From a virus (taxonomy: Duplodnaviria; Heunggongvirae; Uroviricota; Caudoviricetes), in the IMG/VR virus record IMGVR_UViG_3300021400_000048, positions 56,791 through 120,790 of that record: a stretch of 64,000 nt of DNA. The stretch is one strand, 5' to 3'. Position numbers and translations under genes: made by a program. The notes beneath the pieces are model-generated. The model had not been told where the DNA came from, searched no databases, and saw only the letters and a program-made list of their open reading frames with translations. Shown piece by piece: positions 1 to 28,543 of this stretch. Positions within the stretch are counted from its first letter, which is position 1; each line of letters begins with the position of its first letter.

Positions 1-3000
1 CGCCAGAAGAATATGCACAATTTGTTAAACTCAAAGTATAATATGCATGTGTAGGTGATTTTGTATAGCTACCTGGGGCAGCACTAGTTGCTTGTGAAGT
101 AGTTGTTGTTCCTGTACTACTAAATGCATAATTAGCTGAAGCTGTTCAAGTAATAGTTATAGCTGCATTATACCAGCCACTTGACTGATTAGGAGAACAG
201 TTAGTTCCACTGATAGTTAAGTAGAAGTAATTTGCATTACCAGTATAAATATATGTACCTGTACCAACTGTAGACTTTTTAGTAGATGTTCCACTATTAT
301 CAAATGCATAATTTGTTGATGCTGTCCAAGTAATTTCAGTACCAACAGCATAAATTGTATTAGTTGTTTTATTAGCTGAACAATTTGTAGATGAAATTGA
401 TACCTTACAATATCCTGGACTCTTTGAATAAGTTCCAGCAGCAGTAATTGTTGCAGTTGTTGTATCTGAAACAGCACTTCCACCAAATGATCATCTATCA
501 CCCGCAGTTCAAGTAATAACAGTACCTGTATCATACCAACCAGTTGACTTATTAGCAGTACTATTTGTTGCATTAATTGTAACACTATATTGAACTATAT
601 ATGTAGCTGTTATTGTTCTAGCAGCTGTGACAGGACTTAAATCATCCCAAGCATTAAATCTTTGACGAGTAGTTCCACTTGTTACTGTTGGAGGTACTAC
701 TTCAGCTGTTGGAGTTGCACCATGTGCTACTGTAGTTGTAGCAGTAGTTCAAGTTCCATAAGCAGATTGTCATTTTCAAGTAACAGTATATGTATTTCGA
801 GGAGCTGTCTTAATTGATCCTACAGAAGATCATTTATCTTGAGTTTCAGTAGCAGAAGATTCTGTAAATTTAAATGTTGCTGTAACATTTCCAGTTACGC
901 CATCTGTTCCACTATAAGTTGAACTGTCTGCATGATCATATCTTGTTCTAGATTGTGTACCTTTTGCACTAATATAATAAGTTGTATTAAAACTTAGTCC
1001 ACTTTGTGTTTTAGTATCACCTGCTGTTGTTGAGCCTAAGCTTGTTCCACCAGTTGCATTTGTAGTATTATAATATAATGTTACTGTAGCAGTATGTTCA
1101 TTCTTAACTGTAATATTACCAGTCGTTGCTGCTCCTGTAGTAGTTGCTGATGGAGTAGCTATTGAAATTGGTAGTCAAGAACTATAACTTGAAGGATTTG
1201 CTGCATGAGTTCCAGTTAAAGTATCACCATAGTAAATTGTATCGCCATTATTTAATACGCCAGTAGCCGCGCCAGCCAAAGGTGAAGAAGTTCTCTTAAC
1301 TTGATAAGTTCCATAGCTGCTTCCAGTTATTGAAATTGTCAAAGTGTATTGTTTAACTGTACAATTATTAATTGCACTACCTTTATAAGTAGCAGTTCCA
1401 GCCTCAGTTGTAGAAGATATTGTAAAGTTAGTACTATTTAATGTCATTGAACCATAATAAGTTGCTGGTAAATTATATCCAGTAGATGCTGCAATTCTTC
1501 AATAAACTGTAGAATTATAAGATGCTTCTAATGTTGTTGTTCCACCAGAAGTTGTTATACTAGATGTAGACCAATAAACAGTACCACCTGTTCTTGGGTA
1601 TGCTTGAATAGTATAATTTAATGGTGTACAACTTCCTAAGCTACCACTATAAACAGCTGTTTTATTAGCTTCACTTAATGTAAAGTTAGTAGAATTAATT
1701 GCTTTTGTTCCAGTATATGTACTAGGTCTTGCATAATAGTTATTTGCAGAAATAGTCCAAGTTGCATTTGAGCCAATTGTTTTATTTCCAGACCAAGTAA
1801 CTGTTCCATTTGAAGCACTACCACCAGAAACAGTATAATCAAACTTATTCATAGTTAATGCACCAAAAGTATAATTTGCTGTTATTGTTGCATTACGTGT
1901 ATAAGATTTTCCATTATAGTATCTTACACTGCTTGCTGTATAGTCATATCCAATATCAGGAGTAACTGTTTGTGTAACAGACTGATTGTAATATGATCAG
2001 CTATAATTTATAGTTTCAGTAGCATTACTAATAGCTGTTTGTTCAACTGTATATTGTATTGGATTTAGTGTTAATGTAACTTCGCCATCTCCAACAGTTG
2101 TTCAAGTTCCACTAGTACTTTGTGAAGTGTATCCAGTTTTGCTATAAGTATAAGAATATGTACTATTATAAGTTACAGTTATTGTTGTATCTGTATCACT
2201 TGTAGTAGAAGTTGCTTTACTTTGAACTCCTGTAATAGCATAATATTTTCTATGAATTGTAAGAGTATAAGTATTAGCTGTACAAGTTCCCAAACTACCT
2301 AATGCATAAGCAGCTGTTCTATTAGAATCGCTAAAACTGAAATTATCACTATTAAGTGTTACAGTTCCAGAGTATGTAGAAGGTCTAGTATATCCAGGAT
2401 TAGCTGTAATTGTTCAAGTTGAGTTACTTCCATATGTAGCAGTTGCTGGGCTTCAACTTACAGTTCCGTTTGAAGCTATACCAGAAATAGTATATGTTAT
2501 AGCTACACAATTTTTAGTATATGTTGCAGTTTTATTTGCATAGTTAAAATCGCAGCTTGCTTTAGAAACATAAGATGAATATGGTGTATTATAAATATAA
2601 CTTGTTGAATTACAATAGTAGTGTTGTGCAGGATTGATCTTATATACTAAATAATTACTCATTGCACTATATGTCTTTGAAATAGTTGGTCTTGTTGTAG
2701 GTGTTCCTGATGTAGTACTACTTTCAATATAATAACAATAATTAGAATTACTTGAATTTACACTTCAACTATATGTTGTAGCTGTACATGCTATTAATGC
2801 ATATGTTGCTACACTTGTTGCATCATTAAATGTAAATGAAGTATAATTTACACTTGTAGTATAATTATTATTATAATAATATCTTGTATTGCTATAAGTT
2901 ACTTCATAATGTTGAGTAGGAGCTTGTTGTAAATAAATAGTTTTAGACTGATAAGTTAAACTTATTGTTGCACTATAACTACCGCTAGTTGTACCAAGCT

Positions 3001-6000
3001 TACAAGTAGAATTGCTTGCACTAACACTTGCAGTATAAGTAATTGCTACTATTGGATAAGTTGTTGTACTTAAGCTGACTGTCGCTGTCTTAATGCTATC
3101 ATTAAATGCAAATGTATTACCTTTTACATAATAACTACTTCCAGATAATGAATTTCCATTATAATATCTTGTGTCACTAATTGTCATTTGATAATGGCTA
3201 TTAGGTGTTACTTTTACATAAATACTTGGATTACTTGTATATAGCTCAGCATAAGTTTTACTTAATGATGTACTATAACTGCTTGTAGATGTTCCAACTT
3301 GTACATTTGCATTTCCTAATGATGCAGTAACAGTATAAGTAATTGCTGTACAATTAATAGCTAAAGTTGCAGTTCTATTAGAATCTGTAAATGTAAAATT
3401 GCTACCAACTGCATAATGGCTTGTATCACCAATTGGGCTACCATTATAACCTCGTTGACTATTATAAGTAACATCATATCTTGCACTTGGATTTATCTTA
3501 TAATAAATTTTTGTAGATGCTCTGTCTGCATAAGTTCCTGTTTGTGCAGTTGTACTTCCAGTTGATGGTTGAGTACTTCCATGATAACAATATGCACTAT
3601 TAGCACTTGTAATACTATAAGTATATACTATAGCTGTACAATCTGTAACAAAGTTTGCAGTAGCTGTTCCATCGGCAGTTGATGTACTAAATGTATAATT
3701 AGCAGTTGTTAATGCTTTATTTGTATATACATAAGTATTATTATGATAATATGCTGTACTTACATAATAATAATGTTCATTAGCATTTACAGTTATACTA
3801 GTTGAACTTCCATAAGTAACTGCATTTGTAGTTCCTGGTGTACATACACCATTTGCAGAAACTGCACTATATGTATAGCTAAATGGTGAACAAGTAATTG
3901 TACCAATATTAATAGTATTACCTGAAATTGTTCCAGTTACAGTATAAGCACCAGCTTCATAATAAGAACCATGATATTGTGATTTTCTACCGTAGTAATA
4001 ATAAGCATCAGGATTTACTTTAACATATACAACAGAATCATAAGCAGCAGTTGTTATTTCATTATTATAACCAGAATCAGAATAAAACTTAACTACACCA
4101 TAATTTGTAGTAGTTGTTAATACATAAGTTTTTGGTGTTCAATGTGCATATAAAGTTTTATTAGATGTTGCTGTATATGGAAATACAATTTGGCTACCAC
4201 CTGTTTCATCTGTTCATCAACTATTAAATGTATATCCAGTTTTTGTTGGCTCTGTTGGTGCTGTAATTGAACCCCTTACAGATAGTATTCTATTTCATTG
4301 TGCATAAAGTGGTTGTGTACTTGAAGGTTGTCAACTTGCACCCTGATCACCTACCTTAGTTCCACCAGAACTATTAGTATATCAACCAGCTGCAGTATAT
4401 TTATATGTATCTACAGCTGTCTTAGACGCAACGGCTGAGCCACCCGTAGAATCAAATGTTACAGTATATCCAGGACTTGTATCATTTGCTGGTGGTGTTG
4501 CTGTTGCCAATGTAATTGCAGTAACACCTTTATTATTATCTGTTCATTGGGCATATAATGTTGTAGTAGTATCTCGTAATGGAGTACCAACAGCATATTT
4601 TGTGCCAGTTCCTGCAGCATTAGTATTTCAATAATAAGCTTCTCATTTATAATTTAATGTAGTTGTATCGCTATCTTTACTTAAATCAGAACCGCCATTA
4701 GCATTATAAGTAATAGTATAAGTTGCATGAGCATGCGTATTAGTTGTTGTAGGTAATGATGGTAATACAATAGAGGCTTGTGCTGTTTCTTCATTTCAAG
4801 TACATTGAGCTGTAGCTGTTACATTTGCAGAAGGCGTATAGCTTGCACCACTTGCGCCAATATCTCAGCCATTTGCTTTTCTACTTCAAGTATCTTGTGC
4901 ACTAATTGGGTCGCTTAATCCAGTAATAGTACAAGGATGTGAACTACTACTTGGTGAGTTACCATTAAATGTAATAGTATAAGTATTTCTATTTGCATTA
5001 CTAAATGTTAAATTATTAGTTGCAAGAGTTACTGCATTATTTGTATATGTATTTGTTCAAGCAGCATATAATGTAACATTTGATGTAGGTGTATAGCTTC
5101 CACCTGCGCTAACAGCAGTGCCACTTACTGAATTTACATGCCAATCATTTCAATTTCAATGTCTTGTTCTTGTACTTGTTTGACTTGTTGGTAATGTTCC
5201 AGTTCCTTCGCCTTTAGCATAAGTTACAGTATAACCAGCAACTGAATCATCAACACGTGATATAGCTGAGCTAACTGTAATAGATGGGTAAGATCAACTT
5301 CCAGCTGTAGGTGTTTTTGGACTATATGTTACAGAACTATCTACTATTGCAGTTGTATTGGCTGTAGTTGAAATAGAAGTACTTCCTTTATTTCAACCAT
5401 TTACAGTATAATTTCTTGTTGGAGTAGTTGTTTGACTACTTGGAGTAGAGCTTCCACCATTTGCATTATAAGATACTGTTATAGTAGTACTTTCTTGCAC
5501 TGGAGCAGATTTTAATGTTACTGTTGCACCATTATCATATCAACCAGTTGAGCTACTACCACTTATATTTATATAAGCAGAAGTATTAGATACTGTAATA
5601 TAATATTGTAATGTTGGAGTAACAACAGTATATATAGCATTTCCTGTTACAGCCACTACAGTAGGTGTAATGCCAGCATAAACATATCTAGCATTATTAC
5701 TACTATTAGTTCTTGTTTCTTGTACAACATTTGGAATTGTTGGGACAGTTCCATATTCAACAGTAGTAGTTGTGGTAGTATATGTTTCAGAACCTACAGC
5801 GTTAAATGATGCAAAATATTTCCAAGTAATAGTATAAGTTGTTAATTCTTTAGTACTATATGCCACTCATACTGTAGTTTCTGCTTTAGGGAAAAACTTT
5901 CCACTAGTGTCTGATATATTAGAATATGTGTATTGCGTAGTAATATATGGCATTGGTGCAAAATCTTGTGGTCAAGACTCCGTATTATAGTCTGTTTTAA

Positions 6001-9000
6001 ATGGTCCAATAGTAGCAAATGTACTGCCCTCATATTTTAAATTAACATATACTGGTACTTCTGATGGTACAAGTGTTAATGTTGCACCAGCTGTAGTTGT
6101 TGATTTTACATCACTCATATTAATAGAATAATTTGCAGCAGCTGTTGTAGGTTTTGCTTTTGTAGTTTGTCCTATTGCAGTATAAATTACTGTACTAGCT
6201 GCAGAAACATCGCTAGACCAGCTTGAACCACCATTTACAGAATATTGATAAGTAGCAACACCTGTATTAGCTTTAACTATTACTTTATAATAATTAGCAC
6301 TTGGTGTCTGAGTAGTACCAGCTATAGAGCTACTAGAAGTAACATTAGCTGTTGTTGTACCAATTGAGCTAAATGCATAATTCTCATCAGCTGTATATAC
6401 TATATCTGTATCTTTTAATACAAAAGCACCACTTGTAAATCCACTAGGGCTATCTAATGTACAACGTGTAGTGGTAATTAATATTTTATAATATATATAA
6501 TTAGCTGTTTTCTCTAAGATTTGTCCAGCTGTTGTTACTGTATCATACACTGTCAAAGTTGGACTTAGTACATTAGTGTTAGTAAAGCTATATTTATAAT
6601 TTGTATCTGTATTTGCATTTCAAGTTATTACGGTATTTTTTAGAATATATCCAGAGTCGTAGTCTGCACTACAATTTTCAGCGCCTATAGTTACATTATA
6701 ATAAATATATTGAGCATTTTTTATATAATCTGTCTTAGCAGAAACTATTTCTTGCACAGTAACTGTAGGAGCTATTGCGCTACTATTTGTAAAGCTGTAT
6801 TTAGTATTTACATCAGTATCTGCGTTTCAAGTAATTGTAGTTCCACTTAATATATAATCACCACTAGATATTGTTGGAGTAGTTATTGAACAATTAGTAT
6901 TTGTAAATGTTATATAATAATAAATATAATCAGCATTATGTATATAAGCTAATTTATCTAAACTTAATACTTCAGTTTCTATTACAGTTGGAGATTTTAA
7001 ATTAGCATCGCTAAAACTATATTTGTAATCATTAGCTGAGCTTGCTGCTTCTCAGTAAACTGTTGTACCTACTGGATATACTATAGAATCTACCATAGTT
7101 TCTTTATTTTGGCCTACATATCTATAAATATTTGAACAGTTATTACCAGAGTAGCTTGCTTGCATATATTCAGGACTTGGAGCAGTATAAGTACCATTTC
7201 CATCTCATAAGTCTGTTTTTATAATAGAATCATCTTCTGTAGTTACACCATTATAAGAATAATGGCTTTTAGCTGTTCATGTAATTTGTGTAATGCTACT
7301 ATATCATGTATTAATAGTTATACTTGGTGTAGCATATGGGCTATTAATAACAAGAGCTTTAAAATATTGATTATAAGTAGCATCAATATTTCTATTACCT
7401 GTAACTTTTGCTAAACTATCTCAAGCATTAAACTCTAATTTACCAGTGCCTGCTGAATTTGTAACAGTAGTTGGAGTTGGAACTGTTCCAGAAATTGGAG
7501 TTGATGTTCCAGGTATATCATCATAATAATATACTACATTTACAGTTGTTCAATTAACAGCATCATATGTCATATCTGAATCATATGCATTTGCATATCT
7601 AAATGTAATTGTATAAGAATTTAAAGTTCTGTCATTTGTTGCTGTAATAGTTACATTAGTTGTAAGCTCATCTATGTCACCATTTGTAATAATAGGAGTA
7701 GTATATGAGTATTTAGCAGTATCAACAGCTTTATTTACTGTATTTGTTCATCTTGCTGTATCTAAATCATCTCATCTATAGCAAGTAATTGTTGTTCCAT
7801 TTACTTCTAATTTATCACCATAATAAGCTATTTTATCAGCAGAAGATGCTCAAGAACCATATGGAGGATTGCTAAATGATACAGTAAGTGCAATTCTAGT
7901 AGGGGCAGCAGAAACGCTTCCTGGAACAGGGTCTGAATCAGATGTTATAGGGCTATTTCCAAAAATATATCCAGTATTTGCTTTAAAATAAGTTATTTTT
8001 GAAGCCGCTATTTCAAATCAACCACTATTAACTTGAACTGTACATTCAGCATTGCTATAAGCTACGCAATTTGTAACATTAATTGCGTAATAACCATAAG
8101 TACATTCTGCACGATATACATAAGTATTGCTGTTTATTATAGCAGTTTCAGTAGACTTTCCATTAGCATCAAAAGCATAACTAGTTTCTCTTGTTCACGT
8201 AATTACTGTGCCTAATTCATAAATTGTATCAGTAGTCTTATCTGCTGTGCAGTGGTTACTACTTAAATCAATTTTACAAAAACTAGGACTTTTAGCTAAT
8301 TCACCACCTTGAATAATTGTACTTTGTGCAGTATCACTTACACTACTTCCTCCAAATGATCATCTTGGATTAGCAGTTCAAGTAATAATAGTATTTTCAT
8401 CATACCAGCCTGCTGTTGATGTTGTTGAACAGTTAGTTCCAGCAAAAGTAACATAATATTGTTGTTTATATGTACAAGTAATAGTTCTAGACGCAACTAC
8501 TTGACCTAAATCATCTCATGCTAAAGCTACTTGTTTATTATTTCCAGATACGACATCGCTAGGTAAAGTTCTGCTTGGATACTCACCATAGCTATATTGT
8601 TCATTTTCAACTGTCCAATGTCCATAGCTATCTTGTCATTTCCAAGTAATTGTATATTTATTTGTTACAACTTTCGCTGAAACAGCTATACTAGGGTCAG
8701 CAGCAGTTGCTACATCATCAACACAATAAGTTCTAGCACTAACTTCTGTTCAGTTATCTTGAGGCAAATAAGAATATTGTGCAGTATTATCTTTTAATGT
8801 AGCAAAACCATAAACACTTGAATTAATATCAAAGTATGTATTATTAGGGCTTCCTGATGTTGCAGCACTGTCTGTAGATAAATAAATAGAATTTGTTTTA
8901 CATTCTAAAGCTGACATAGAAACTTTAAATCAAGAAGGTTTAGCAACTATATTGCAATTTTCACTTCAAATATAAAGTTTTTCAGTAGTTGTTCCTGCTT

Positions 9001-12000
9001 CATCTCAAGCATAGCCACGTTCAGCATATACGGTAAAACTAGTTGGTAATCAATAGCCAGTTTCAGCATGCTCATTATGATTATATGCAGTAGTTTGATA
9101 AGTTGTGTATAAATAAGTAATTCGACCAAAGCAATAGTTAGGGCTTGCACTTAGTGTTGTAGGTACTTGTGCATTTGAAGCAGTTATAGTTAAACTTGTG
9201 CCACCTGTTGGCTTTTCAGCAGATGCACTTGCAGCAGCACCACTTGCAAAAGATCAATAAGTACTTGAATTAACTACTGTACTTAAGTTAGTTCCCTTAG
9301 CAACATATTGACCATTAGCGTGGCCTGAAGCATATTCACAGTGTGTTAAATCTAATGTTACTTGTACAAAATCTGGATTTGAAGTTAATGCACAATTTAA
9401 TGACCAAGTTTTTGTTTCAGTTGTTTCTGAAGCGCTATATGCATAGCCATTATTAGCTGTACAAGTTATTTGACCACCATTTGTAAAATAATAATTTGTT
9501 CCACTTGGGATTGTTGTACTTAAAACACTATCTGTTGCATAGCAATTTATACAAGTTATTTGACCAATCACACAAGTAGGGCTACCATTTATAACTCTTG
9601 GCTGATTCATTATCACAGTTTCTGAATAATTGCTTGCAGTAGTACCAGTACTAAATGAATAGTTAGACTTAGGTGTAAAGGTAGCAGTTACTGATGTTGC
9701 ATCTATAATTTTGTATCAAGCAGATGACTTATTACATGTACAATTTGAATCTACATTTATTGTTAAATAGCAGTGTGTAGGTGTTTTTGAATATGTATTA
9801 CCTGGTGTTATTAAATTATCACTTTCTGTTGTTTTTCCATTAGCGTCAAAAGCATAACCAGGATCTCTTGTTCAAGTACATTGAGTATTATATTGATATC
9901 AACCAGTAGTTGAAGGAGTTGTACAGCCTACTCCTGCAGAAATTATTACGTAAATATAATCCGCTGTTGGTGCATAATTAAATATATTTCTTGTTACATC
10001 TAAATATGTAGTTGTTTGAGTTCCATTAGCATTAAAAGCACAATTATTAGCTGCTGTAAAATTAATACGTGTACCTATTTCATACCAACCATCTGTGCTA
10101 GTAGAAGAACAACGAGTTCCACCAATAGTAATATCCATAAAGTCAGCAGAAGCAACATAATTTGTAATTGATGCTACAATAGTATCTTCTAAAACATTTG
10201 TTCCCTCTGAGTCAAAACCATAATCATCTAAAGCTATTCAGCTAAATGTAGTTCCTAACAATCTATAACCATCTGCCATTATCATGATATCATCTATGTA
10301 TGCATTACAAGATGTGCCATTAAATGTTACATATTTATAATCTGCAGACGCTTCATATAAGTATGGCGCAGCTAAAGATACAGATTGATAAGTTGATGCA
10401 CTTTGTGTTGTTCCTTCTGCAAAACTATATCCTATATCTGCTGTTCAAGTAATTCTTGTACCGCCTCTCATAAGACCTACCCAGCCACTTGGGATATTGA
10501 CACTACCATCATTTGCTTGACATCTTGTTGATTCAACTTTAATTTGTACATAAGGAGGAATCTTATCAAATGTGCCGCCGGCTGTTAATGTAACAGTAGT
10601 ATCATCTCCTATGCTAATTCCATTAAATGAGTGCTTATTATCAGCAGTTCAAGTTATTGTAAGATTATTTGGTGCATAATAAGTATTAGAATCTTTATCT
10701 ATTGCACTACAATAACTTCCAGTTATACTTGCAGCTTTTATATTTGTAGGGCTATTATCATAAGTACCAGGTGCTAAAACAGTTGTTGTAGCTTCTGTTT
10801 GAGTAGCTCCAGCACTAAATGAATAATAAGTATCTGGTGCTCAACGAATTATAGTATTTAAAGCTACAACACCACTTCAATTTGTAGCTCTTTGAGTAGA
10901 ACCTACATAAATAGTATCATTAGTTCCTTTAACTGTAATTCCAGCATATGTTGGACTTGCTGAAACAGTACCTGGTACTGCTGCTGTTTGGTCTAAGTAA
11001 TCATTTACAGTTGTTCCATTAAATGACCAATTATTCACAGCAGTAAATCTTGTAGTTTTACTTACAGCTAATTCATACCAACCACTGTTTACATTTGCTG
11101 TATATTTATCAGAATCGGCAGAAACAGTATAATAACCATAAGTTGGCGCATAATCATACGCATTTTTACCGGCTTCAGTTAAATGCTTACTAGCTGTTTG
11201 TGTTCCATTACTATCATAAGCATATAAATTATCAGCAGTTCAGGTACATTCTATATCATAACTAACTCATCTTCAACCATCAACAATAGCTGCACCGCCA
11301 ATGCTTGCAGCACTATTTGTTGATGCAATTTTTACATAAATATAATCTGCAGAATTTGAATAAATACCTGCTTGATTTGGAGTAATGCTTTGAACAGCTG
11401 TTTTTTGTGTACCATGTATATTAAAAGCATAATTATCTCTATCTGTTTCAGTTCCAGCAGTTCAAGTATATGTAAATGCTGTTGAGCTGCTATCATACCA
11501 ACCAGATGGATAATTACTATCTAACGTACAACGTGTACCATTAAATGTTAATTTATATTGACGTTTATATTGTGCGATAATAGTTCTATTTCCAGTAACT
11601 GGTGATAAATTATCCCATTGTAAGAAATATTCTCTGGCATTATCTTCACTATTAGTTACAGTTTCACCGACTCTACTTGGAGTCTCACCATATATATAAA
11701 CTTCTTCAACCTCAGTATAAGTATTTGGATAAGCTGTTAAATATTTCCAAGTAATTGTATAGCCATTAACAGTTTGTGTACCTCATATTATTTGTTGATA
11801 AACTTCATGTGTAATATTAGTAATTTCCACATCTTCCATATTACTATATGTATAATATGTTGTTACATATGTGCTATCTGTATATAAGTCTGAAGCTCAT
11901 ACACTATCACCATAATTTACAATATATGGGCCAGTTTCTGCAAATCTTGTTCCTTCATAATAATGTTGTAAATAAACTGGTACAGTCGCAGGAACTATTG

Positions 12001-13696
12001 TTACACTTGCTGGTAATGATGTAGATAATACAATAGTAGCAGTGTCTACCGTATAATTAGTATCCGCTGTGCAAGCTTTTACTTTAGCTATGTTTCCAGT
12101 AGGACAATTAAAGCTTGTGGCACTTACGTTATCTATTCAAGTAATGCCATCATCAGTACTATATGAATAAGTTACAACACCTGTAGCTCTTGTTACATTA
12201 ACAATAAAATATGCTGCTTGTGGAACAGTTGCAGATTGACTTGAATATGTACAAATTGCGTAAGGCTGATTATCTAGTACATAACCTGTAGTAGCTGTTG
12301 AAGCTTTAACATAACAAGTAGCGACATAATCTATATAAATATTATCACCAGAAGTATATTCAGTTGTAGACCAAGTAGTTCCATTTGTTGAATACTTAAA
12401 TTTAGCAACACCTGTACCTAAGCTAATAGTAGGATTCCAATTAATACGTGTTGCACCAACACTTGCAATAGTAGTATTTTCGTAATAAGCATTTGTAATA
12501 AATGGTGTACCACTAACAGTGCCATTTCAAGTATATAAGCCAGTTTCATCATCATATGTACAGTCTGTTTCAGTGATTGTGCATGTTGCATAGTTTGTTC
12601 CGCCACTACGCTCTCTTAATACTAAAGTTACTGGAAATTTATAGCCAGTTGTCATTGCAAATCTAATAGGGTCTGTTAACCAATTACCATTTCCAAGTAC
12701 TTGGATATTATTACCACTTGTAGGATATAAATTAGTAATGCCAGTCATAGCTGCTGTATCATTATAAATATTCATTATTTTACCAACAGCATTTACATTA
12801 ATTTCATCATAATAAGTATTTCCTGACATTGTATAGCTATTATTTCCAAAAGTTAATGTAATAATAGGCTCAGTAATATTTGCATAATCTAACCAATTTG
12901 CAGATCTTAAACCGCTAATATTGATTGCTAAAGGAGCATCAAATGTACCAACATTATTTACAGTAATAACTGCACCATTTGCTGTATTTTTAATAATATT
13001 ATAACTTTTTGGTGTAGGATTAACAGCTGGAGCAATAATTGCAGACCCTTCACCGGCAATAACAGTACCTTTATAAGTTGATTCTGCACCTGTAAATTCA
13101 TAGCCTGTGTCTGGGATAGCTTCTCAAGTAATTGCTGTTCCCCACCAAGGATAAGGATTATCTAAGTTAACACTACCAGAATTCACTGTTCCAGTATGTT
13201 CAACTCCATAAATATCAGTATATTTATAAGAAATAACTGCATGACTAAGTGAATTTACAATACTATGATTGGTAGCATATCTTCTAGCCTCATAACTATT
13301 TACAGCTTGTTCATCCAAAATTATAGTATTAGGGCTAGCTTGTGAAGTAGCAATATTACCACTATCTACACCATTAACAAAAAATCTACCTTGTACTGCT
13401 GGTGTAGTGCCAATATAAAAATATAAAATATCGCCACCAAAAAATACTTGGCCATCTTCGCACATACTTGTATCTTTTAAGTGAACTTGAGTAGCCAAAT
13501 CTGCAGGAGCGCTGATTTCTATGTAATTACCAGTAGCTGGGAACATTTCACCAGCTGCTCTAACATAAATATCAGTAATTCCTAATGTAAATTTAATATA
13601 TGGGTCTAAGCCTGGCCAATGTGCATTATACTTTAAGTAATACTCTCTTTTTGCAGATATTTTATACTCATTCTTAATATATTCTTTTGTTGCCAT
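1..13696 (-). CDS. giant repetitive virion-surface / tail-fibre-like protein (table 4); 5' end complete, 3' end beyond window, more than 4,560 codons in window
   Basis: ATG at 13694-13696 behind a GAGAGGA RBS. All T/S/Y/N/G-rich minus-strand fragments (ends 12829, 10138, 9616, 6556, 5866, 3187, 2662, 2293, 1852, 1447) share the frame of 13696. Fragments that were checked end in TGA (e.g. + strand tca at 13124-13126 and 9899-9901). Fragments in other frames (217..585, 5842..6033, 8947..9150) are Q/L low-complexity junk. Confidence 0.7.
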
Positions 13697-13721
13697 AATT
13701 TAATTCCTCTCTAAGAATACT

Positions 13722-14327
13722 TTAATTAGTAGCTTGTGTACTTTCGTATGTATAAATATTTCCTTGAATATATGTAACACCTTCTATAGTTGTTGTTGCA
13801 CCTGTATATCTATAATATATTCCTGCATTTGCAGCTATTAACTTGGCATGTAATTCTGCTGCTGTAATAACTGTAATAACGCCTTCAAGGCTACCGCTTG
13901 CAATATATCCATTTCCTCATGACAAAATATTGCCTTGTCTTGTTACTGAAACAGCATTAAAAGCACCAATACTAGAAATTACTCAAGCTGTTCCATTATA
14001 GACTAAGTCCAATATACAGTTTGCAGCTCAGTTATTTGCACTTACTCCTGAATTTATATTAGCAGTAATTGCTGTTGCTGCTACAATTTGTGTGCCACTT
14101 TCATCGTTAATTGTAAGTGTAGGGTTAATTGCAGTATTACCATTAACAAATCTTACTTTAAGTTGTAAGCCTTCCTCTAAAACTAAACTTGTTAATTGTG
14201 CGCTATTTATTACCTTTGCAGCTGTATTTGCAAGAGTTGAGCAAGTACCGTATGGAATAGCTATACTATATGAGTCAATAGTATTATTATTTTCATTTTC
14301 GATTTCAACAGTATATATTTTTGACAT
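13722..14327 (-). CDS. hypothetical 201-aa protein; paralog of 14345..14671 with an extra C-terminal domain; reads through 3 TGA
   Basis: Hand translation continues past the TGA at 14028 to a TAA at 13722-13724. Shares the (K/R)FVNGNT..P.ITIN motif with the next gene. Confidence 0.55.
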
Positions 14328-14344: not shown

Positions 14345-14671
14345 TTATTTAAATAGCTTTGTAATAATAAGCTGATTATTTCCACCATATGTTACTTCAA
14401 CAATATTATCAATATCAATATTAGTCGGTAAACATGGGCTATTTCCTAAAATTATACAAGCAGTTCCATTAATTGTAATTGCAGGCGCACTTGAAGTATT
14501 GCCATTAACAAATTTAATTAACAACTGCTCGCCTATTTCTAAAACATCACTTGATATTCTATAGCTACCTTTATTTATTTCTGAATCTGCTATTTCTACA
14601 GGTATTTCAATTATTGGTAAACTAATACTATATTCATTTGTTGCTATTTCAATCATACTTATTTTTGCCAT
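14345..14671 (-). CDS. hypothetical 108-aa protein (FVNGNT motif family)
   Basis: ORF track; real TAA stop; RBS GGGGA upstream. Confidence 0.55.
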   Translation of the reverse strand: MAKISMIEIATNEYSISLPIIEIPVEIADSEINKGSYRISSDVLEIGEQLLIKFVNGNTSSAPAITINGTACIILGNSPCLPTNIDIDNIVEVTYGGNNQLIITKLFK

Positions 14672-14681
14672 ATAATTTCCC

Positions 14682-14891
14682 CTATAAAATTAATTTTCCA
14701 TCTTTTACTTCTCTTTTTTGATTTAAAAAAGGAAGGTCTCCAACTGTGTGAATACCATCCCCTATTTTTATTCTAGGAGAAGCATTTTCAAACTCATATA
14801 CAATAATAGTAAATTGATCTGGGACATAGTTTTTAGCCTTTTCTCAATTTTGAGCCAAATCGGTCTTAATTATAGCATTTTGTTTTTTCAT
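14682..14891 (-). CDS. small 69-aa protein, one TGA-Trp (IKIGDGIHTVGDLPF motif)
   Basis: ATG behind an AGGAGAAACATT RBS; hand translation MKKQNAIIKTDLAQNWEKAK...GKLIL; not in the ORF track because of its size and the TGA. Confidence 0.4.
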
Positions 14892-14954: not shown

Positions 14955-17666
14955 TTAATTATTGTTATTATCTTGGTTTTCAAATGTTACATCGGAAATA
15001 ACACTAACAGGTGTTGAATCTACACTAGTTATAACAGCTGCTCCATCTTGAGTGCTTCCAACTTGCCCTGTTGCAACTGTTGTTGCCTGAGCATTAGCAA
15101 TTGGAACATCTACATCTTCAAAAGTATATTGTGTAATTGTATTTTCTGTTTGTTTTGCTGGTATAACAGTTGTAGTTGCATTAGCAATTGGTGTTAGTCT
15201 TAAGCTACATTTATTAGCATTATAAGATGCTTTATAAGCAGCATCATTATTACTAAAGCCTGTCATTACAGTAACTGGAATATCTACATCGGCATTACCA
15301 CATGATTTATTTACAGAATTACTTACATGTGATGCAGTTTCTGTACTATCACCGACACCCTTAACGGTAGTAGTAGTTAAATAATGTGTTTCTGGTGATA
15401 CTGCTTGAACAACACTTTCTTGTTCAGTATTTAATTCTGGTTTATTATTTAAATCATTATAATCGCCACTAAAAGAAGATGTACCAGCGCCAATATTAGT
15501 TCTGGCATTCGCTTTTTGAGTATCATTTAGATTTTGAGCATTTGTATCATATCTAATATATCTATCATTAGTTAAATCACTGTCACTTTCTGGAATTGGT
15601 GTACTATTAAAAGCATTATCACCTAAACCATGAACAGATACTTCTGTGCCATCAACTCTAATAGTTCCATCAGTATTTCCTTCAATAACTGATTGGACTG
15701 CACTATCTGCTAGTTCTAAGCTATCTTGCACGCTATCAGCTAAATCTGTTTTTGGAATTCCTTCAGCAGGCTTATTATACTTATTATTTCAGCCGGCTAA
15801 AGTATTTTCAGTAAGGCTATCTAATAGAGTTTTATTTTCATGGGTATGTCTTGCAGTTGTATTATTGTTTATATCTATTACTAAATTTGTATTAATTCCG
15901 CTATTAATTGCTGCTCATTGATCAGCAGTAAATGAACTGTTATTTAAAGTATATTCATAAGCTCAGCTATTATTACTATATTTATATCTATCAAATTTAG
16001 TTGTCTCTGTTGCTACAACAGGGTCTGGAAAACTTACATATGCATAGTCATTAAGCGTTGGATTACTTACTGCTATTGCTAAAGCTGTAGCTATTTGTGC
16101 TTCTGTAGCATCGATAGTTAAACCTAAATCAGTCACTACATTAAATGTTCCTTTAAAATTAGCAGTTGCTGTAGCAATAGAACTATTAACAAAGTCTTTA
16201 TCTGCTAATTGATTACTTGATGATGCTTGTTCAGGAATTAAGCCTTCAATGGCGTCTAAGCTATCTCCTAAAGAACTTAACTCTTGTTTTGTAGCATAAT
16301 TAGCTAAGTCACTAGAAGTTACAAAATTTGAGTCATTATTTAAATCAGAAGTTTTTGTTGGAATAGTAGGTTTATTAAGTAAATCATCATAGTCACCAGA
16401 AGTGGCAACATTCGCTAAATCATTACTCTCTACATAATCAGCTAAAATATTAGTTAGTTCACTCTCCGTAATATAGTCACTTGGCACTTCTTGTAATGCA
16501 GTAGCTCCTAGAGCAGCTCCACTTCTAATTGTATCTAAGTCAGAAATAGTATTTTGTTTAGCATTAAGCCCAGTACTAACTTCTTGTTTAGTAGCAAAGC
16601 CAGTTAAATCAGGCTTATTTATTAAGTCATCATAATCACCAGTTGTTGCAACTATAGCTAAATCTGCATCCTCTACGTAATCTTCTAATTCAGTAGCTAA
16701 TTCAAGTTCTGTAACATAATCATTTAAAACTGCAGGTTGTACAGCAGTAGCACCAGCTGCTGCACCACTTCTAATAGCATCTAAATCATCAATAGTGTCT
16801 TGCTTATTATTTAGTGCTTCATCTACATACTGTTCTGTAGCATAACCATCTAAAGCATTTGATGTTATAAAATCGCTATCATTTGTTAAATCTGATGTCT
16901 TAGTAGGTATCGTTGGCTTATTATCCAAATCATTATAGTCCCCACTTGTTGCTACAGTAGCAAGGTCTTCTATTATATTTAAATAATTATCGGTAAAGTC
17001 ATTAGTACTTAAACCTTTGCCATTAACTTTATCAACTTTATCATCTAAACCAGCATCAAGAGCTTCTTGTGTAACAAAACTGCTATCATTAAATAAATCT
17101 GAAATCTTTAATTGTTCATTACCTAATTCAACATGGCCATATTTGTCATATCCAACTTTTCTTGCAATAGGTACTTGAGCAGCATTATATTTTTTGCTGT
17201 GTTTAATAGAAATATTATTATCTGTGCTATTACCTGTTACTTCAATTGGATTGTTTTCTGCAGTATCAGCAATAATATCTACAATTGCATTATCTGCAAA
17301 TTCTGTGTTACCAGACTTAACTTTTTGGTTAGCTGAAACTGCATTAGAGCTAATGATTACTTTAGGCGAATCCTCAAGCTCTTTTTCTACTTCTAAAATA
17401 ATATTTTCACCGGCAACTAGTTCAACTTCATCATTTGCACCAAAAGTTATTTCTTCTTCATCTACGAGAACTTTAATTTTTTGGTTTGCAGCAGGATCTC
17501 TTTTATCAAGTTCTTCACGCAAGCCAGTAATTGCCTCTATTGGATGTTGGTCAGGTAAATTTCTATTAGCTAATCTATTATGGTCTTTCACACCATTAAT
17601 TTCACCAACTTTACCATGAATATTAGGATCTGATGAAATTTTTCCAATAATTTTGCTACTTGGCAT
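14955..17666 (-). CDS. tail fibre protein, 903 aa, three Phage_fiber_2 repeats (SGDYNDLDNKP / TGDYDDLINKP / SGDYDDLLNKP plus a fourth GDYNDLNNKP)
   Basis: ORFs 15963..17666 and 14955..15731 are in the same frame. Hand translation of 15732-15962 has no TAA/TAG, only TGA at 15963, 15915 and 15789. AAAGGAG RBS before 17666. Confidence 0.8.
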
Positions 17667-19180: not shown

Positions 19181-19501
19181 TTAGTTAACATTAACTTTCT
19201 TTGATCATTTACACATTTCTGAAATATAGTCAATTAATTTCTTAATAACTTTTTCATCAAACTTAATTCCAGCAGCAGTCATAGCAGTTTTAATTCCTTC
19301 AAGTGCCATATTTAATTTGTCTTCACTTGTCATTTCATGATGTGCTTTAGCAAATTCTTCAACATCTGCCATTACAGCTTTTGCAATTTCAGTAATAGCT
19401 TTCCAATTCTTGTCTTTAATTGATTTTACAATTAACATTACAAATGCAACAACTGCAGAAACTGCAGAAACTAATTCAGGTATAAATTTTACAAATTCCA
19501 T
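19181..19501 (-). CDS. small protein with an N-terminal TM helix, 106 aa (holin-like topology; function unknown)
   Basis: ORF 19205..19501 ends in TGA and extends 8 codons to a TAA at 19181; followed by a hairpin + T-run. Confidence 0.5.
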
Positions 19502-19509
19502 TCAGTCCA

Positions 19510-20055
19510 TTAATTTTCTCCTTTACTCTTATTTTTTGCTGATTTTTTTGAGACTAGATGTACATCTATTTCTTTAATTTCTTCTTTAACTGGAAGATTA
19601 TCAAATCTATTCATAATATCTTCTACAAAAGAATTACCATCCAGAGCTACATATGCTTCATATAGATCATGAATATTTTGATAGTCGTAATCATTACGAT
19701 ATCCCTTTTCTCGACATCTATAATAACAAGTTAAGATATCATTTCTCAGCGTAGCCAATGTACCTTCTGCAGTAGCTGCTAATTTTTTATCTAATCCATC
19801 TATTTTTTCAGTTAATGGCTTAATAGCTTCTTGAATAGTGTTATTTAATGTTTCTGTTAGTTTTTCATCAGCTTCTTGTTTTTTATAGTCTGCAAGCTCT
19901 TTTTCAGCGTCTTCTTTTTGTTTTCGTTCTTTATCAGCTTTATCAAAATATTTTGTCATTCAGCGCTTTAATAAAAAAGCAATGCAAGTAGTTAAAATGC
20001 AGCTCACAATAATTGGAACTGCCCAAGCTCAAAATTGCGCTCAAGTAAAAATCAT
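19510..20055 (-). CDS. membrane-anchored coiled-coil protein, 181 aa (4 TGA-Trp in the first 33 codons)
   Basis: GGGAG RBS then ATGATTTTTACTTGAGCGCAATTTTGAGCTTGG...CGCTGAATGACA, in frame with ORF 19510..19959; N-terminus MIFTWAQFWAWAVPIIVSCILTTCIAFLLKRW. Confidence 0.6.
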
Positions 20056-20748: not shown

Positions 20749-21519
20749 TTACTTTATTATTTTTTTTATTGCATCTATAATGGCATTTGAAAGATTAATA
20801 ACTGGCACAACTTTTTGTATAGACTGTGGTGGGGAATTGGTAGATTTGTCCTCAACCGAAGTGTCATGTCAAGGATATTGTTCAAGTAGACCTTGTAATG
20901 AAGTCTGTGGATTAATATTATTTTTTCATCGACTGGCCAATGTTATACTTAATAGCTTATTATTTGAATTATTTGTACCTCATATATTACAAGAAATATT
21001 ATAACTTAGTAAGCTAGTTTGGCTACTAACAGGTGATAAAGTAAGCAGATCTCAACTAATATCTGCTGATTTAATTTTATACGCGTCATTAGCTATTGTA
21101 AATTTTAAATAAATAAATTTTTTTTCTAAATACTGTGACATTAATAAAGCAGCAATTAAATTAGCTTTTATTATATTTAGAACATCTTTAATAGGTACCC
21201 CAATTTGATTGTTTGCAGACAATCAGTCTAGCAAAACGACCATGATATTAATATCAATATCTTGATAGTCTGATACGTCTAATAAATTAGGCTTATAACT
21301 TTTAATTATTTCAGCAAAAGACTTTTTAGTAGCAACTATATTATTGTTTTTATCTGATAGCCCAACTACAAATCTTTGATCATTAATTAAGTACTTAATA
21401 TCAGAATCTTTACTTCATACAGCGGTAAAAAATATGCCTATATAATTATTGTCTTTAATTTCCCTTCAAGACATATCTTTTAATTGGTCTATCGTTAAAT
21501 TTGTAAAAGTCTTAGCCAT
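20749..21519 (-). CDS. hypothetical 256-aa protein, 7 TGA-Trp
   Basis: Hand translation from an ATG behind a GGAG RBS; class A motif 21555-21571 upstream; stop TAA at 20749. Confidence 0.5.
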
Positions 21520-24748: not shown

Positions 24749-25489
24749 CTAAATTAAATTAATAGCTGCTTCTAATGCACGTTTTAACTCTTTTACTAAG
24801 TCATCAATACTAAAAATTTTAACAAATAAATTTATTTTATTTCCTGTATTGTTTTCATAATAAGCAGCTTTTACTTTTAAGTCAATTTTTGGTAAATTAT
24901 ATTTAATAAAGTCTAAATCTGAGACTAATTGTTTAGAACAGTCTAAGTCAAATAAGTCATTATCTTCTGCAGTAATTTGTACATCAATAAAGCCATCATA
25001 AAGTTTATTAGTACTATTATCTAAAAGAGTATAGTTAATATTAATAACATCATCAATATCTTTATTATTAGTATTAATTTCTGGGTAATGCTCAAAAAAT
25101 TTTACAGAAAAAGTATAATCATTTCCTCTAGCATTGAATACTCATAAATGTTCTAATAATTTATCTATCATGATAAATTTACTAAGTATCGCACAAGCAT
25201 ATCTTATTAAATCACGCACAGTAATATTTTTCGCATTATTTACAAAATAAGTGTATTTTTTGTCATATAATTTTCTAATAATATTTCTAATAACAAATTC
25301 AGTATTTAGATCAAAAATATAATCATCACGGCGATTAATTCTACTATTAGTCCCAACAATTCATCTTTTTAAAATTTTTTTATTAATTAATTCTTGAACA
25401 AGTTTATCTTTATATATTAATTCAAAAGCTTCTTTATAAACTTGCATATCATCTGACATCTCTTGTCAAGTTGTATTTAAAGTTACCAT
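24749..25489 (-). CDS. hypothetical 246-aa protein (TGA-Trp)
   Basis: AAGAGGAAACGAATAA-ATG start; stop TAG overlapping the AGGAGG of the next gene. Confidence 0.5.
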
Positions 25490-25500
25490 TTATTCGTTTC

Positions 25501-26262
25501 CTCTTAATCTAATAAGTCTTCAATAGCCATCTTAATTATCGCTGGTAAATGTTTAATATCTGTAGTAGAAGATATATGACTATTACTATTATTAGCATTT
25601 TCAATATAAACTTCTATTGTTGTATTTTTTATTAAATCTTCTAATGTAGCAGTTTTTATATTTTTTATATTAATATGGTGTTGGTGTGCTCATCAATTAC
25701 AAATTATTATTTCAAATATGCCATTTTTTGAAGTAAGACTAGTGTTAGCAATATTTTTATTTATACCAGTAATATAGCTATATTTAACAATACTTGGTTT
25801 TATACTAACTGGAGCCTCTGAAAAAATATCACAAGTTAGCCCATAAAAAGTTATTCTTTTATATTGTCATTTACCATTAATATAGTCTAAGTTAGAAAAA
25901 ACTTGTACAATTGATTCAGCAATTAAAAAAGCAACAGCTATATTTGCTTTGATATATTTTATAGCATCTAAAATAGTGACTGTATCATCTAATCTTCCTT
26001 CATTACCTGAGTATGCATAATTTAATAGAGTTATCATTAAAGTCTTATCAGAAAAAGCACCCATAGAATTTGAACACAAAGTCTTAAAACTGCTATATTG
26101 ATAAGTTCATGCTTGATAGTCTATAACAAAATTATACTTATAAATTAATTGTTGCAGGCCAGTATCTTGTTTTCATACCAAATTAAATAGCTCATCTACA
26201 TAATCCTTTGCCAATATTCCTGGCCAAGACATGACTTCAAGTTGTTGTTTTGTTACTGCCAT
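25501..26262 (-). CDS. hypothetical 253-aa protein (6 TGA-Trp), first gene behind class A motif 26294-26309
   Basis: ORF 25867..26079 extended both ways by hand; start MAVTKQQLEVMSWPG behind a GGAG RBS. Confidence 0.5.
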
Positions 26263-27450: not shown

Positions 27451-27466
27451 TGTATTTCTACAGCTT
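27443..27466 (-). terminator. hairpin AAAGCTGTA-TTTC-TACAGCTTT after nrdD
   Basis: Overlaps the nrdD stop; its T-run is the class B -10 upstream tract. Confidence 0.6.
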
Positions 27467-28413: not shown

Positions 28414-28543
28414 CATGTTCTCAAATATTACTATTTGCACTGACTATATGTTCCATACTTCTGTATGGCCCTCCGCTTGGAACTGGTGCTTATCTCCAGC
28501 TCTACTCCGCTACACTCATCACGGATAGTCGATACACATTTAG

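What the first reader, a model, noticed from the sequence alone, without database searches (positions are those of the whole stretch)
1..13696. A single ORF of more than 4,560 codons hidden by about 90 in-frame TGA codons
Every plausible coding fragment over 13.7 kb is in one frame, continuous with the ATG at 13696. The N-terminal about 190 aa form a distinct globular domain. The rest is an extremely T/S/Y/N/G/A-rich array of roughly 90-100-aa units that look like repeated beta-sandwich domains. The ORF continues past position 1.

A protein this size directly downstream of a Phage_fiber_2 tail fibre and small fibre-module genes suggests a mega-fibre or adhesin. Nothing like it is annotated if the standard code is used.
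Basis: seen in the sequence. Interest (0 to 1): 0.85.

Follow-up and report, generated by a model that had tools for sequence, protein, structure and literature searches.

The report
Giant TGA-recoded modular phage fibre gene
A sheep-rumen phage that reads the stop codon TGA as tryptophan encodes one enormous protein (6,300 residues in the full public scaffold, about 680 kDa by extrapolation). It is built from dozens of small beta-strand modules and is most likely a very long virion fibre or adhesin that standard-code annotation would miss.

Summary
From the ATG at 13696, the minus strand runs 4,565 codons to the window edge with no TAA or TAG and 74 TGA (not about 90). The chance probability is about 1e-119.

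TGA encodes Trp. It swaps with TGG in conserved Trp columns of the repeats and between orthologs. The same DNA sits in a 109-kb ENA sheep-rumen scaffold, where the gene is called as 6,300 residues.

A diverged ortholog (3,266 aa, 45 TGA, ends in TAA) lies in the same gene order in another sample. Substitutions between the two are mostly synonymous third-position changes.

DNA repeats are at most about 80% identical, so an assembly artefact is unlikely.

The protein is a mosaic, not one 90-100-aa repeat. It has an orphan N-terminal region and at least five unrelated module types of 55-104 aa. Only one type is a Pfam family (Flg_new). One modelled type resembles CCP/sushi beads; another matches no solved fold. 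There is no signal peptide, membrane segment or LPXTG.

Position, synteny and TGA use point to a late-expressed virion fibre or adhesin, but virion attachment is untested. I rate it a new variant of a known kind; interest 0.6.

The parts
2..13696 (-). Giant ORF, 5' 4,565 codons of a 6,300-codon gene (74 TGA = Trp, 28 TGG, no TAA/TAG). It continues about 5.2 kb beyond window position 1.
   Evidence: open frame, chance about 1e-119. (6,300-residue product on ENA scaffold). (TGA = Trp; purifying selection).
13705..13712 (-). Shine-Dalgarno-like AGAGAGGA, 9-16 nt upstream of the ATG. The ortholog has AAAGGTGG at the equivalent place.
13274..13696 (-). aa 1-141: orphan N-terminal domain with no family or structure match. 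Candidate virion-docking end (inferred).
   Evidence: only relative in 1.84 billion representatives is P0001, 59% identity. (no Pfam or PDB match).
11123..13696 (-). Conserved block 1, aa 1-858. It contains the N-terminal domain, the first A unit (aa 142-205), a unique region (aa 206-414), two C units (aa 415-575), the first B unit and the first A units. It is 59.5% identical to P0001 aa 1-855.
9422..11605 (-). Longest run of type-A modules (12 tandem units, aa 698-1425, about 60-65 aa each). There are 25 A units in the window part overall. The predicted fold is a small all-beta module resembling CCP/sushi.
4136..5479 (-). Type-D array, aa 2740-3187: five Listeria-Bacteroides repeats (Flg_new, PF09479). 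Absent from the ortholog P0001.
   Evidence: 47.4 bits against a cut-off of 27, E 2e-12..
1301..4132 (-). Type-E array, aa 3189-4132: about 10 modules of 75-104 aa. It includes conserved block 2 (aa 3193-3814, 67.7% identical to P0001 aa 1776-2391). The confident all-beta model matches no solved fold.
2..793 (-). aa 4302-4565: another B unit followed by at least four A units. The array runs off the window.
13722..14327 (-). 201-aa gene (3 TGA) directly upstream, conserved next to the giant gene in the ortholog locus (191 aa there). Its N-terminus is paralogous to the 108-aa gene.
14345..14891 (-). 108-aa and 69-aa genes. They are conserved in the same order upstream of the giant gene in both lineages.
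14955..17666 (-). 903-aa fibre-like protein with four SGDY[ND]DLxNKP motifs. It has weak similarity to tail or structural proteins of PA5oct-like phages. Its ortholog in L003 is 1,529 aa.
   Evidence: No Phage_fiber_2 by Pfam.
19181..19510 (-). Holin-like gene (2 TGA), which marks the neighbourhood as a late/lysis region.
   Evidence: PHROG holin, E 1e-6. (Phage_holin_6_1, weak).

Best explanation
SHOWN
- Window 13696 to 2 (minus strand) is the first 4,565 codons of one real protein-coding gene of 6,300 codons. It belongs to a large, low-GC (29.5%) sheep-rumen phage that decodes TGA as tryptophan.
- The product would be about 680 kDa, extrapolated from 494 kDa for the window part.
- It has an orphan N-terminal region followed by dozens of small, independently folding all-beta modules of at least five unrelated types. 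One type is the Listeria-Bacteroides (Flg_new) repeat.
- Module number and content differ strongly between lineages (6,300 against 3,266 aa).
- It has no signal peptide, membrane segment or wall anchor.

INFERRED
- It is made in the cytoplasm late in infection, because its TGA codons make it untranslatable under the standard code. It shares this property with the neighbouring fibre-like, holin-like and surface-type genes, but not with the nucleic-acid enzymes.
- It is released as part of the virion.
- The conserved N-terminal block docks it to the particle, probably the tail or baseplate, possibly through the conserved small upstream proteins.
- The module string forms a flexible beads-on-a-string fibre. 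At the roughly 3-4 nm per module known for CCP strings, it could reach a few hundred nm.
- Its lectin-like modules and its distal end bind host surface polysaccharide or rumen particles. Gain and loss of modules would tune reach and specificity.
For: One ORF:
- 0 TAA/TAG in 4,565 codons, chance about 1e-119.
- 6,300-residue gene call on the ENA scaffold.
- RBS plus ATG conserved in the ortholog.

TGA = Trp:
- The two conserved Trp columns of the A units hold TGA/TGG at 6/7 and 16/1. Most of the remaining residues in those columns are F or Y.
- Between orthologs, TGA pairs with TGA or TGG at 9 of 12 sites, and there are 10 TGA/TGG swaps.

Selection: single-nucleotide differences between orthologs number 323 at codon position 3 (308 synonymous) against 90 and 83 at positions 1 and 2.

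Conservation: the ortholog is a single code-4 ORF of 3,266 codons with 45 TGA, ending in TAA. It sits in the same order: fibre-like gene, 69-aa, 108-aa, about 200-aa, giant.

Not an assembly artefact:
- Three assemblies are 100% identical to the window where they overlap.
- DNA repeat copies are at most about 80% identical over 55-100 nt, with no tandem arrays.

Modules:
- 49 units of 5 types cover 66% of the sequence.
- Flg_new scores above the Pfam threshold.
- AF2 models are all-beta, pLDDT 89.4 and 76.9.
- The A unit resembles CCP/sushi.

No export signals.

Late/virion context:
- A holin-like gene and a fibre-like gene lie upstream.
- Trp-codon classes split as TGA 82 / TGG 10 against 0 / 73, Fisher p 3e-36.
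- Nucleic-acid enzymes fall in the TGG-only class.
- This is the pattern Borges et al. describe for recoded phages.
Against: - There is no direct evidence that the protein is in the virion. No capsid, portal, terminase or baseplate gene was recognised in the window.
- Classical tail fibres are trimeric beta-helical rods, not strings of globular modules.
- The N-terminal region matches nothing, so docking is pure inference.
- In the ortholog locus, the genes after the giant gene are Mur-ligase-like rather than structural.
- The last 1,735 residues of this phage's protein were not seen.
- No TGA-suppressor tRNA, RF1 or TrpRS was found in the roughly 104 kb examined. How TGA is decoded, and hence the 'late switch', is not established. 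The host could simply use code 4.
Confidence: 0.6

Rival explanations
1. The gene is real and giant, but the product is not a tail fibre. It would be a capsid or neck decoration ('hair' or whisker), or a free adhesin or matrix protein released at lysis. Such a protein would glue particles, hosts or plant fibre together rather than mediate adsorption.
For: - Beads-on-a-string globular modules resemble decoration proteins and adhesins more than trimeric fibre shafts.
- There are no recognisable baseplate genes nearby.
- Downstream genes in the ortholog locus are non-structural.
Against: - The giant gene directly follows a fibre-like gene and three small genes, in conserved order in two lineages.
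- The first 858 aa are conserved, as expected for a docking end.
Confidence: 0.22
2. The locus is not phage. It would belong to a code-4 bacterium (for example a Mollicute-like rumen organism) or its plasmid, and the product would be a bacterial surface adhesin.
For: - Code 4 is native to some Bacillota.
- Giant repeat adhesins and Flg_new repeats are typically bacterial.
- No hallmark virion gene was identified in 64 kb.
Against: - The protein has no signal peptide, TM segment or LPXTG.
- About 58 genes of 100 aa or more all lie on one strand. Most are ORFans, alongside a holin-like gene and strong PHROG hits to phage RNA ligase (E 1e-172) and a phage DNA methyltransferase.
- nrdD is 77% identical at the DNA level to that of Thomasclavelia phages.
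- The extreme TGA-only/TGG-only split between genes is unexpected for a native code-4 genome.
- No match was found in 185,579 species genomes.
Confidence: 0.05
3. Code-4 translation artificially fuses several adjacent genes. Some of the 74 TGA codons would be true stops, so the giant ORF would be a read-through artefact.
For: Borges et al. explicitly list gene fusion as an artefact to exclude when assigning alternative codes. The ORF is hidden under code 11.
Against: - TGA sits in conserved Trp columns and swaps with TGG, both within repeats and between orthologs.
- All 13.7 kb stay in one frame, with TGA spaced about every 60 codons inside modules.
- The synonymous-substitution pattern is continuous.
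- The ortholog ends at a TAA after a unique C-terminal domain.
Confidence: 0.02
4. The length or repeat number is an assembly artefact, from expansion, collapse or chimerism in a repetitive region.
For: The data are short-read metagenome assemblies. Window positions 1-4344 were not covered by any second contig that I could fetch. The three matching assemblies probably derive from the same sheep-rumen project.
Against: - There is no DNA repeat above about 80% identity over more than about 100 nt, and no tandem array.
- The window is 100% identical to ENA, NCBI and Logan contigs wherever they overlap, with no gaps.
- The ortholog from another sample is collinear in two long blocks.
Confidence: 0.03

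Closest known systems
Tail-associated BACON / Ig-like domain tandem arrays of gut phages (de Jonge et al. 2019, PMC6949934; modular phage adhesins, PMC13370021)
   Same: Both are phage-encoded strings of small beta-rich modules placed next to tail genes. Module number changes between lineages by duplication and transfer. The proposed role is binding to host or gut surfaces.
   Different: Those arrays have 5-8 domains of a known family. Here at least 49 recognisable modules of five types lie in a partial sequence (6,300 aa in full). No BACON or Big family was detected, and the gene is TGA-recoded.
TGA-recoded (code 4) gut phages such as the Agate, Jade and Sapphire clades (Borges et al., bioRxiv 10.1101/2021.08.26.457843)
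   Same: Shared features are low GC, a large genome, in-frame TGA = Trp concentrated in structural and lysis-type genes with replication genes in standard code, and recoded modules scattered along the genome.
   Different: Clade membership was not tested, because no marker gene was available. No suppressor tRNA, RF1 or TrpRS was found in the parts examined. I found no mention of a giant gene with 74 or more recoded codons in the passages of that paper I searched.
Listeria-Bacteroides repeat (Flg_new, PF09479) surface proteins of Bacillota and Bacteroidota, prototype the InlB B-repeat
   Same: Five modules (aa 2740-3187) match Flg_new, and the match exceeds the Pfam threshold.
   Different: These modules make up only about 10% of the protein and are absent from the ortholog. 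The protein lacks the export and anchoring signals of those bacterial proteins. The abundant A units do not reach the Flg_new_2 threshold, and their model does not retrieve the InlB B-repeat.
Strings of CCP/sushi modules, for example complement factor H (structural analogy only)
Giant bacterial repeat adhesins, for example the 1.5-MDa MpAFP ice adhesin with about 120 Ig-like repeats (PMC4083281)
   Same: Both are of extreme size, built from many small beta modules that extend a binding region away from the surface.
   Different: MpAFP repeats are near-identical and the protein is exported. Here the modules are 30-56% identical at best and of several types. The gene is phage-borne and has no export signal.

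Membership tests
Code-4 (TGA = Trp) recoded phage, sensu Borges et al. | In-frame TGA codons at positions homologous to Trp | tested here: met
   The repeat Trp columns hold TGA/TGG at 6/7 and 16/1. Ortholog pairs show TGA opposite TGA or TGG at 9 of 12 sites, with 10 swaps.
Code-4 (TGA = Trp) recoded phage, sensu Borges et al. | Recoded codons concentrated in structural and lysis genes, with replication genes in standard code | tested here: met
   20 genes hold 82 TGA / 10 TGG. 38 genes hold 0 TGA / 73 TGG. The TGG-only class includes RNA ligase, DNA ligase and NrdD. The TGA class includes the fibre-like, holin-like, LRR and glycosyltransferase genes.
Code-4 (TGA = Trp) recoded phage, sensu Borges et al. 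| Phage-encoded TGA suppressor tRNA, RF1 or TrpRS | tested here: inconclusive
   Only tRNA-Thr was found in the window, L003 and L004. Borges et al. themselves found suppressor tRNAs in only 35% of code-4 phages.
Tailed phage (virion-encoding genome) | Major capsid, portal and terminase genes | tested here: not met
   No such PHROG or Pfam hit was obtained among the window proteins scanned. These genes may lie outside the window. Phage origin rests on other genes.
Flg_new (PF09479, Listeria-Bacteroides repeat) | HMM match above the Pfam gathering score | tested here: met
   The segment aa 3001-3500 scores 47.4 bits against a cut-off of 27, E 2e-12. An own HMM finds 5 such units at aa 2740-3187. 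This applies to those units only.
Flg_new_2 (PF18998, divergent InlB B-repeat), considered for the A units | HMM match above the gathering score, plus the InlB B-repeat fold | tested here: not met
CCP / sushi module (PF00084) | Four conserved cysteines (two disulfides), a conserved Trp and a Pfam match | tested here: not met
Phage_fiber_2 (PF03406) tail fibre, claimed for the 903-aa neighbour | Pfam HMM match | tested here: not met
   There is no hit at E <= 0.01 or at E <= 1. Weak tblastn similarity to annotated tail or structural proteins exists.
BACON / Ig-like tandem-array phage adhesins | BACON or Big/Ig-like Pfam domains in tandem next to tail genes | tested here: not met
Exported bacterial giant adhesin (LPXTG, T1SS or T9SS type) | N-terminal signal peptide or C-terminal sorting or secretion signal | tested here: not met
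   The N-terminus is hydrophilic (KD -1.2). The maximum 19-residue hydropathy is 1.5. Neither ortholog has LPXTG. The C-terminus of the window's own protein was not seen.
Virion structural protein | Physical presence in purified particles | not testable with these tools
   This needs virion proteomics or EM. Only genomic context is available.

The most novel reading that the evidence does not exclude
The protein is among the largest phage-encoded proteins (my recollection, not checked). It would form a tether several hundred nm long, built from previously undescribed module families, that lets a rumen phage fish for hosts or hold on to feed particles.

The full gene probably carries about 100 TGA codons, extrapolated from 74 in 4,565 codons. 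Full-length synthesis would therefore need near-complete reassignment. At 95% read-through per codon, under 1% of chains would finish; at 99%, about 37% would.

The gene thus implies that the infected cell is effectively fully switched to code 4, for example by loss or inactivation of RF2 or by a native code-4 host. It would also act as the most stringent built-in timer and quality gate of the code switch.
Probability: 0.3. Interest if true: 0.8.

Novelty: new variant of a known kind. Interest (0 to 1): 0.6.

Why it matters
- It is a concrete case where the wrong genetic code hides by far the largest gene seen in a phage genome region. Under code 11 this is about 75 meaningless fragments.
- It extends the known idea of tandem-domain phage adhesins by an order of magnitude in size.
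- It adds an orphan N-terminal region and at least four module types with no family assignment. One has a confident model that matches no solved fold.
- So many recoded codons in one essential reading frame put a quantitative constraint on how efficiently TGA must be read as Trp in the infected cell. This speaks to the open question of how recoded phages switch the code.
- Module gain and loss between lineages (6,300 against 3,266 aa; the Flg_new array is present in one only) makes it a natural system for studying how phages tune reach and specificity in the rumen.

Tried and rejected
- **The search for homologous proteins.** The searches with aa 1-1000 and aa 1-493 each returned 8,000 word-sharing candidates and nothing significant. 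A relative does exist, so the index was evidently swamped. The third search, with P0001's C-terminus, found only a 91-aa fragment.
- **Reaching the missing 3' end.** Exact 58-mer and 30-mer searches in IMG/VR and JGI metagenomes found nothing. Lookup of the code-11 first fragment found no record. I could not fetch the last 5.2 kb of the gene.
- **Wider relatives.** No relatives were found in IMG/VR, JGI metagenomes, GTDB genomes or INPHARED. This used single-sequence queries, an alignment and a degenerate-motif pattern. Only marginal single-repeat hits appeared for the Flg_new array.
- **Restricted tools.** They refuse sequences with W at TGA and DNA references containing TGA. Only TGA-free stretches and P0001 pieces could be modelled. 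The N-terminal domain and the C-terminal domain were not modelled.
- **Tandem alignment.** A first alignment of tandem E units was staggered by MAFFT and discarded.
- **AFDB50 fold library.** It was unavailable.
- **PDB profile hits.** Hits of the A-unit profile to antibody light chains (E 0.04 or worse) were judged to be chance.
- **Alternative TGA meanings.** TGA = Gly (code 25) and selenocysteine were rejected on the Trp-column evidence.
- **Group I intron in split nrdD.** Rfam found none.
Full report
**1. The observation**

The reverse complement of window 1-13696 starts with ATG. In that frame it holds 4,565 codons with 74 TGA, 28 TGG and no TAA or TAG. The other two frames of the same strand carry 266 and 438 TAA/TAG, so an open frame of this length has a chance probability of 1e-119 or less.

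All ORFs of the window lie on the minus strand, and many of them also need TGA to be read through. A purine-rich Shine-Dalgarno-like site (AGAGAGGA) lies 9-16 nt upstream of the ATG.

- There are 74 TGA codons, not about 90.
- The '190-aa N-terminal domain' is simply the stretch before the first TGA (codon 191).
- The repeat units are not 90-100 aa of one type (see section 5).

**2. What TGA means**

An iterated HMM finds 25 copies of a 60-65-aa unit (type A). Its two conserved Trp columns are encoded by TGA/TGG at 6/7 and 16/1. Most of the non-Trp residues in those columns are Phe or Tyr.

Against the ortholog described below, TGA in the window pairs with TGA (7) or TGG (2) at 9 of 12 aligned sites. 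Window TGG pairs with ortholog TGA at 8 sites. So TGA is tryptophan (code 4), not glycine, selenocysteine or a stop.

**3. Is the sequence right?**

An exact-protein lookup of the TGA-free 108-aa neighbour retrieved two contigs. One is an ENA scaffold of 109,376 bp (ERZ1756080). The other is an NCBI contig of the AUXO01 project.

AUXO01 is the sheep-rumen metagenome of Shi et al. 2014 (PMC4158751). Both contigs are 100% identical to the window over 20.3 and 12.8 kb, without gaps. Further ENA, NCBI and Logan contigs are identical to the other end of the window.

On the ENA scaffold the gene is listed with a product of 6,300 residues, so about 1,735 residues lie beyond the window.

Inside the gene, the most similar DNA repeat copies are about 80% identical over 55-100 nt. 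Tandem Repeats Finder sees nothing relevant. Repeats this diverged should not mislead an assembler.

The caveat is that the matching assemblies probably share their reads. Window positions 1-4344 were also not covered by a second contig that I could fetch.

**4. Relatives**

An exhaustive HMMER search of 1.84 billion representatives with the TGA-free first 190 residues found one true relative. This is P0001, 3,266 aa and 59% identical. Its contig (Logan SRR23253282, 47 kb, locus L003) shows a single code-4 ORF of 3,266 codons with 45 TGA and 14 TGG, ending in TAA.

The gene order upstream is the same: a fibre-like gene (1,529 aa there, 903 aa here), then genes of 69, 108 and about 200 aa, then the giant gene.

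The two proteins are collinear in two blocks. These are aa 1-858 (59.5% identity) and aa 3193-3814 (67.7%). Between them lie 2,335 aa of modules here against 921 aa in P0001.

Single-nucleotide differences in the aligned codons fall 323 times on position 3 (308 synonymous), against 90 and 83 on positions 1 and 2. The frame is therefore under purifying selection as a protein.

A third relative is represented only by an 855-nt contig carrying the C-terminal end. Nothing related was found in IMG/VR, JGI metagenomes, 185,579 species genomes or 50,697 deposited phages.

**5. Anatomy of the protein**

Own HMMs assign 49 units covering 66% of the 4,565 residues:

| Type | Copies | Size (aa) |
|---|---|---|
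| A | 25 | about 60-65 |
| B | 5 | about 57-74 |
| C | 3 | about 75-85 |
| D | 5 | about 50-60 |
| E | 11 assigned (about 10 true units) | 75-104 |

- One of the 11 E assignments (aa 2947-3003) lies inside the D array and overlaps a D unit. The E array proper (aa 3189-4132) has about 10 units.
- Paralogous units are 30-56% identical.
- The non-repeat pieces are aa 1-141, aa 206-414 and several shorter stretches.
- Pfam recognises only the D units, as Listeria-Bacteroides repeats (Flg_new, 47.4 bits against a cut-off of 27). One A unit matches weakly below threshold to Flg_new_2.
- Nothing else matches Pfam, PHROGs or PDB sequences.
- Profile-profile comparison gives under 1% probability for every pair of unit types. 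The protein is therefore a mosaic of unrelated module families.
- P0001 has no D units and ends in a unique, non-repeat C-terminal domain.

**6. Folds**

AlphaFold2 was run with alignments of paralogous units.

'Beta-sandwich repeats' is thus roughly right for one type and unproven for the others.

**7. Context**

The window is 29.5% GC. Upstream of the giant gene lie the three small conserved genes. The 108- and 201-aa proteins share a paralogous N-terminus.

Further upstream lie the 903-aa protein and a holin-like gene. The 903-aa protein gives no Phage_fiber_2 hit. Its central repeats resemble proteins of PA5oct-like jumbo phages annotated as structural, tail or long-tail-fibre proteins (28-29% identity, E about 1e-8).

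Phage origin is supported by:
- strong PHROG hits for an RNA ligase/phosphatase (E 1e-172) and a DNA methyltransferase;
- nrdD at 77% DNA identity to Thomasclavelia phages;
- the one-strand, ORFan-dense layout.

No capsid, portal or terminase gene was recognised in the window, however.

Two ENA scaffolds each match the window exactly over the stretches I could compare. By their coordinates they overlap by about 32 kb and jointly span about 167 kb.

**8. Code use across genes**

Among 58 genes of 100 aa or more, 20 use TGA (82 TGA / 10 TGG). The other 38 use none (0 TGA / 73 TGG). Fisher p is 3e-36, and all 58 stop at TAA or TAG.

The TGG-only class holds RNA ligase, DNA ligase, NrdD and an SPFH protein. 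The TGA class holds the fibre-like, holin-like, BspA-LRR, glycosyltransferase and giant genes.

This is the pattern Borges et al. report for recoded gut phages. They interpret it as confining structural and lysis genes to the late, code-switched phase. No suppressor tRNA was found in the roughly 104 kb examined, so the decoding agent is unknown and a native code-4 host is not excluded.

**9. Interpretation**

Shown:
- It is one real, selected gene of 6,300 codons with TGA = Trp.
- It encodes a mosaic of small beta modules.
- It has no signal peptide, membrane segment or LPXTG.
- Module content varies between lineages.

Inferred: it is a late-expressed, virion-attached fibre or adhesin. The conserved N-terminal block would dock to the particle, and the module string would act as a flexible tether, perhaps a few hundred nm long.

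Rivals are a decoration or free adhesin, a bacterial origin, a fusion artefact and an assembly artefact. The last two are strongly disfavoured by the data above.

One consequence is worth testing. The full gene probably has about 100 TGA codons, so full-length product requires roughly 99% or better read-through per codon. That constrains how the code switch works.

**10. Novelty**

The ingredients are known: recoded phages, tandem-domain phage adhesins and Flg_new repeats. New here are the scale, the orphan N-terminus and the unassigned module families. It is also notable that so many recoded codons fall in a single frame. I rate it a new variant of a known kind, interest 0.6.

Noticed in passing
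window 13700-64000, all minus-strand genes: Trp codon use is bimodal by gene. 20 genes hold 82 TGA / 10 TGG, and 38 genes hold 0 TGA / 73 TGG (Fisher p 3e-36). The two classes are interleaved as several blocks rather than two halves. No gene ends in TGA. The giant gene is mixed (74 TGA / 28 TGG).
   Followed up: partly
window 27466-30554 (-): The anaerobic ribonucleotide reductase gene nrdD is split into a 416-aa N-part (29304-30554) and a 316-aa C-part (27466-28416). A 201-aa GIY-YIG endonuclease gene (28544-29149) lies between them and, unlike nrdD, uses TGA for Trp (3 TGA / 0 TGG). The Rfam gathering scan finds no group I intron there.
   Followed up: partly
L007 467-469 (ENA ERZ27280380, contig k141_829854): In a third relative of the giant gene, an in-frame TAA sits exactly where P0001 has Trp, about 100 codons before the end. 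It is one transition away from TGA. This is either a truncating variant or a read error on a short contig.
   Followed up: partly
window 52841-64000 and beyond (L004; ENA scaffold_1361754 and scaffold_1210668): Two large scaffolds of the same ENA assembly (109,376 and 90,575 bp) each match the window exactly over the stretches compared. By their coordinates they overlap by about 32 kb and together span about 167 kb. The genome is probably much larger than the window suggests and may be circular or terminally redundant.
   Followed up: partly
window 14955-17666 (-) and L003 4100-8689: The fibre-like neighbour also varies in size between lineages (903 against 1,529 aa). It carries four copies of the motif SGDY[ND]DLxNKP.
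   Followed up: partly
window 42034-45636 (-): This is a cluster of surface-chemistry genes. It holds a UDP-glucose-dehydrogenase-like gene (TGG-only), a 521-aa family-2 glycosyltransferase (12 TGA) and a BspA-type LRR protein with a Gly/Ser-rich tail (2 TGA). A BspA-LRR gene also lies upstream of the ortholog in L003 (1857-2573).
   Followed up: no
L003 20066-29801: Downstream of the ortholog lie two genes with Mur_ligase_M hits (583 and 623 aa) among four TGA-using genes. Gyrase A and B genes follow on the opposite strand; gyrA, the only one counted, has 0 TGA and 6 TGG.
   Followed up: no
window 20749-21519, 24749-26262, 30689-31363 (-): Several TGA-rich genes of about 220-260 aa have no match in PHROGs. 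By eye they look like a paralogous family, but I did not test this.
   Followed up: no
window 32546-34663 (-): A 705-aa fusion of a kinase-like domain (weak AAA_33 match below threshold), a metallophosphoesterase and a T4 Rnl1-type RNA ligase. It also matches the PHROG named 'RNA ligase and tail fiber protein attachment catalyst' (E 1e-26).
   Followed up: no
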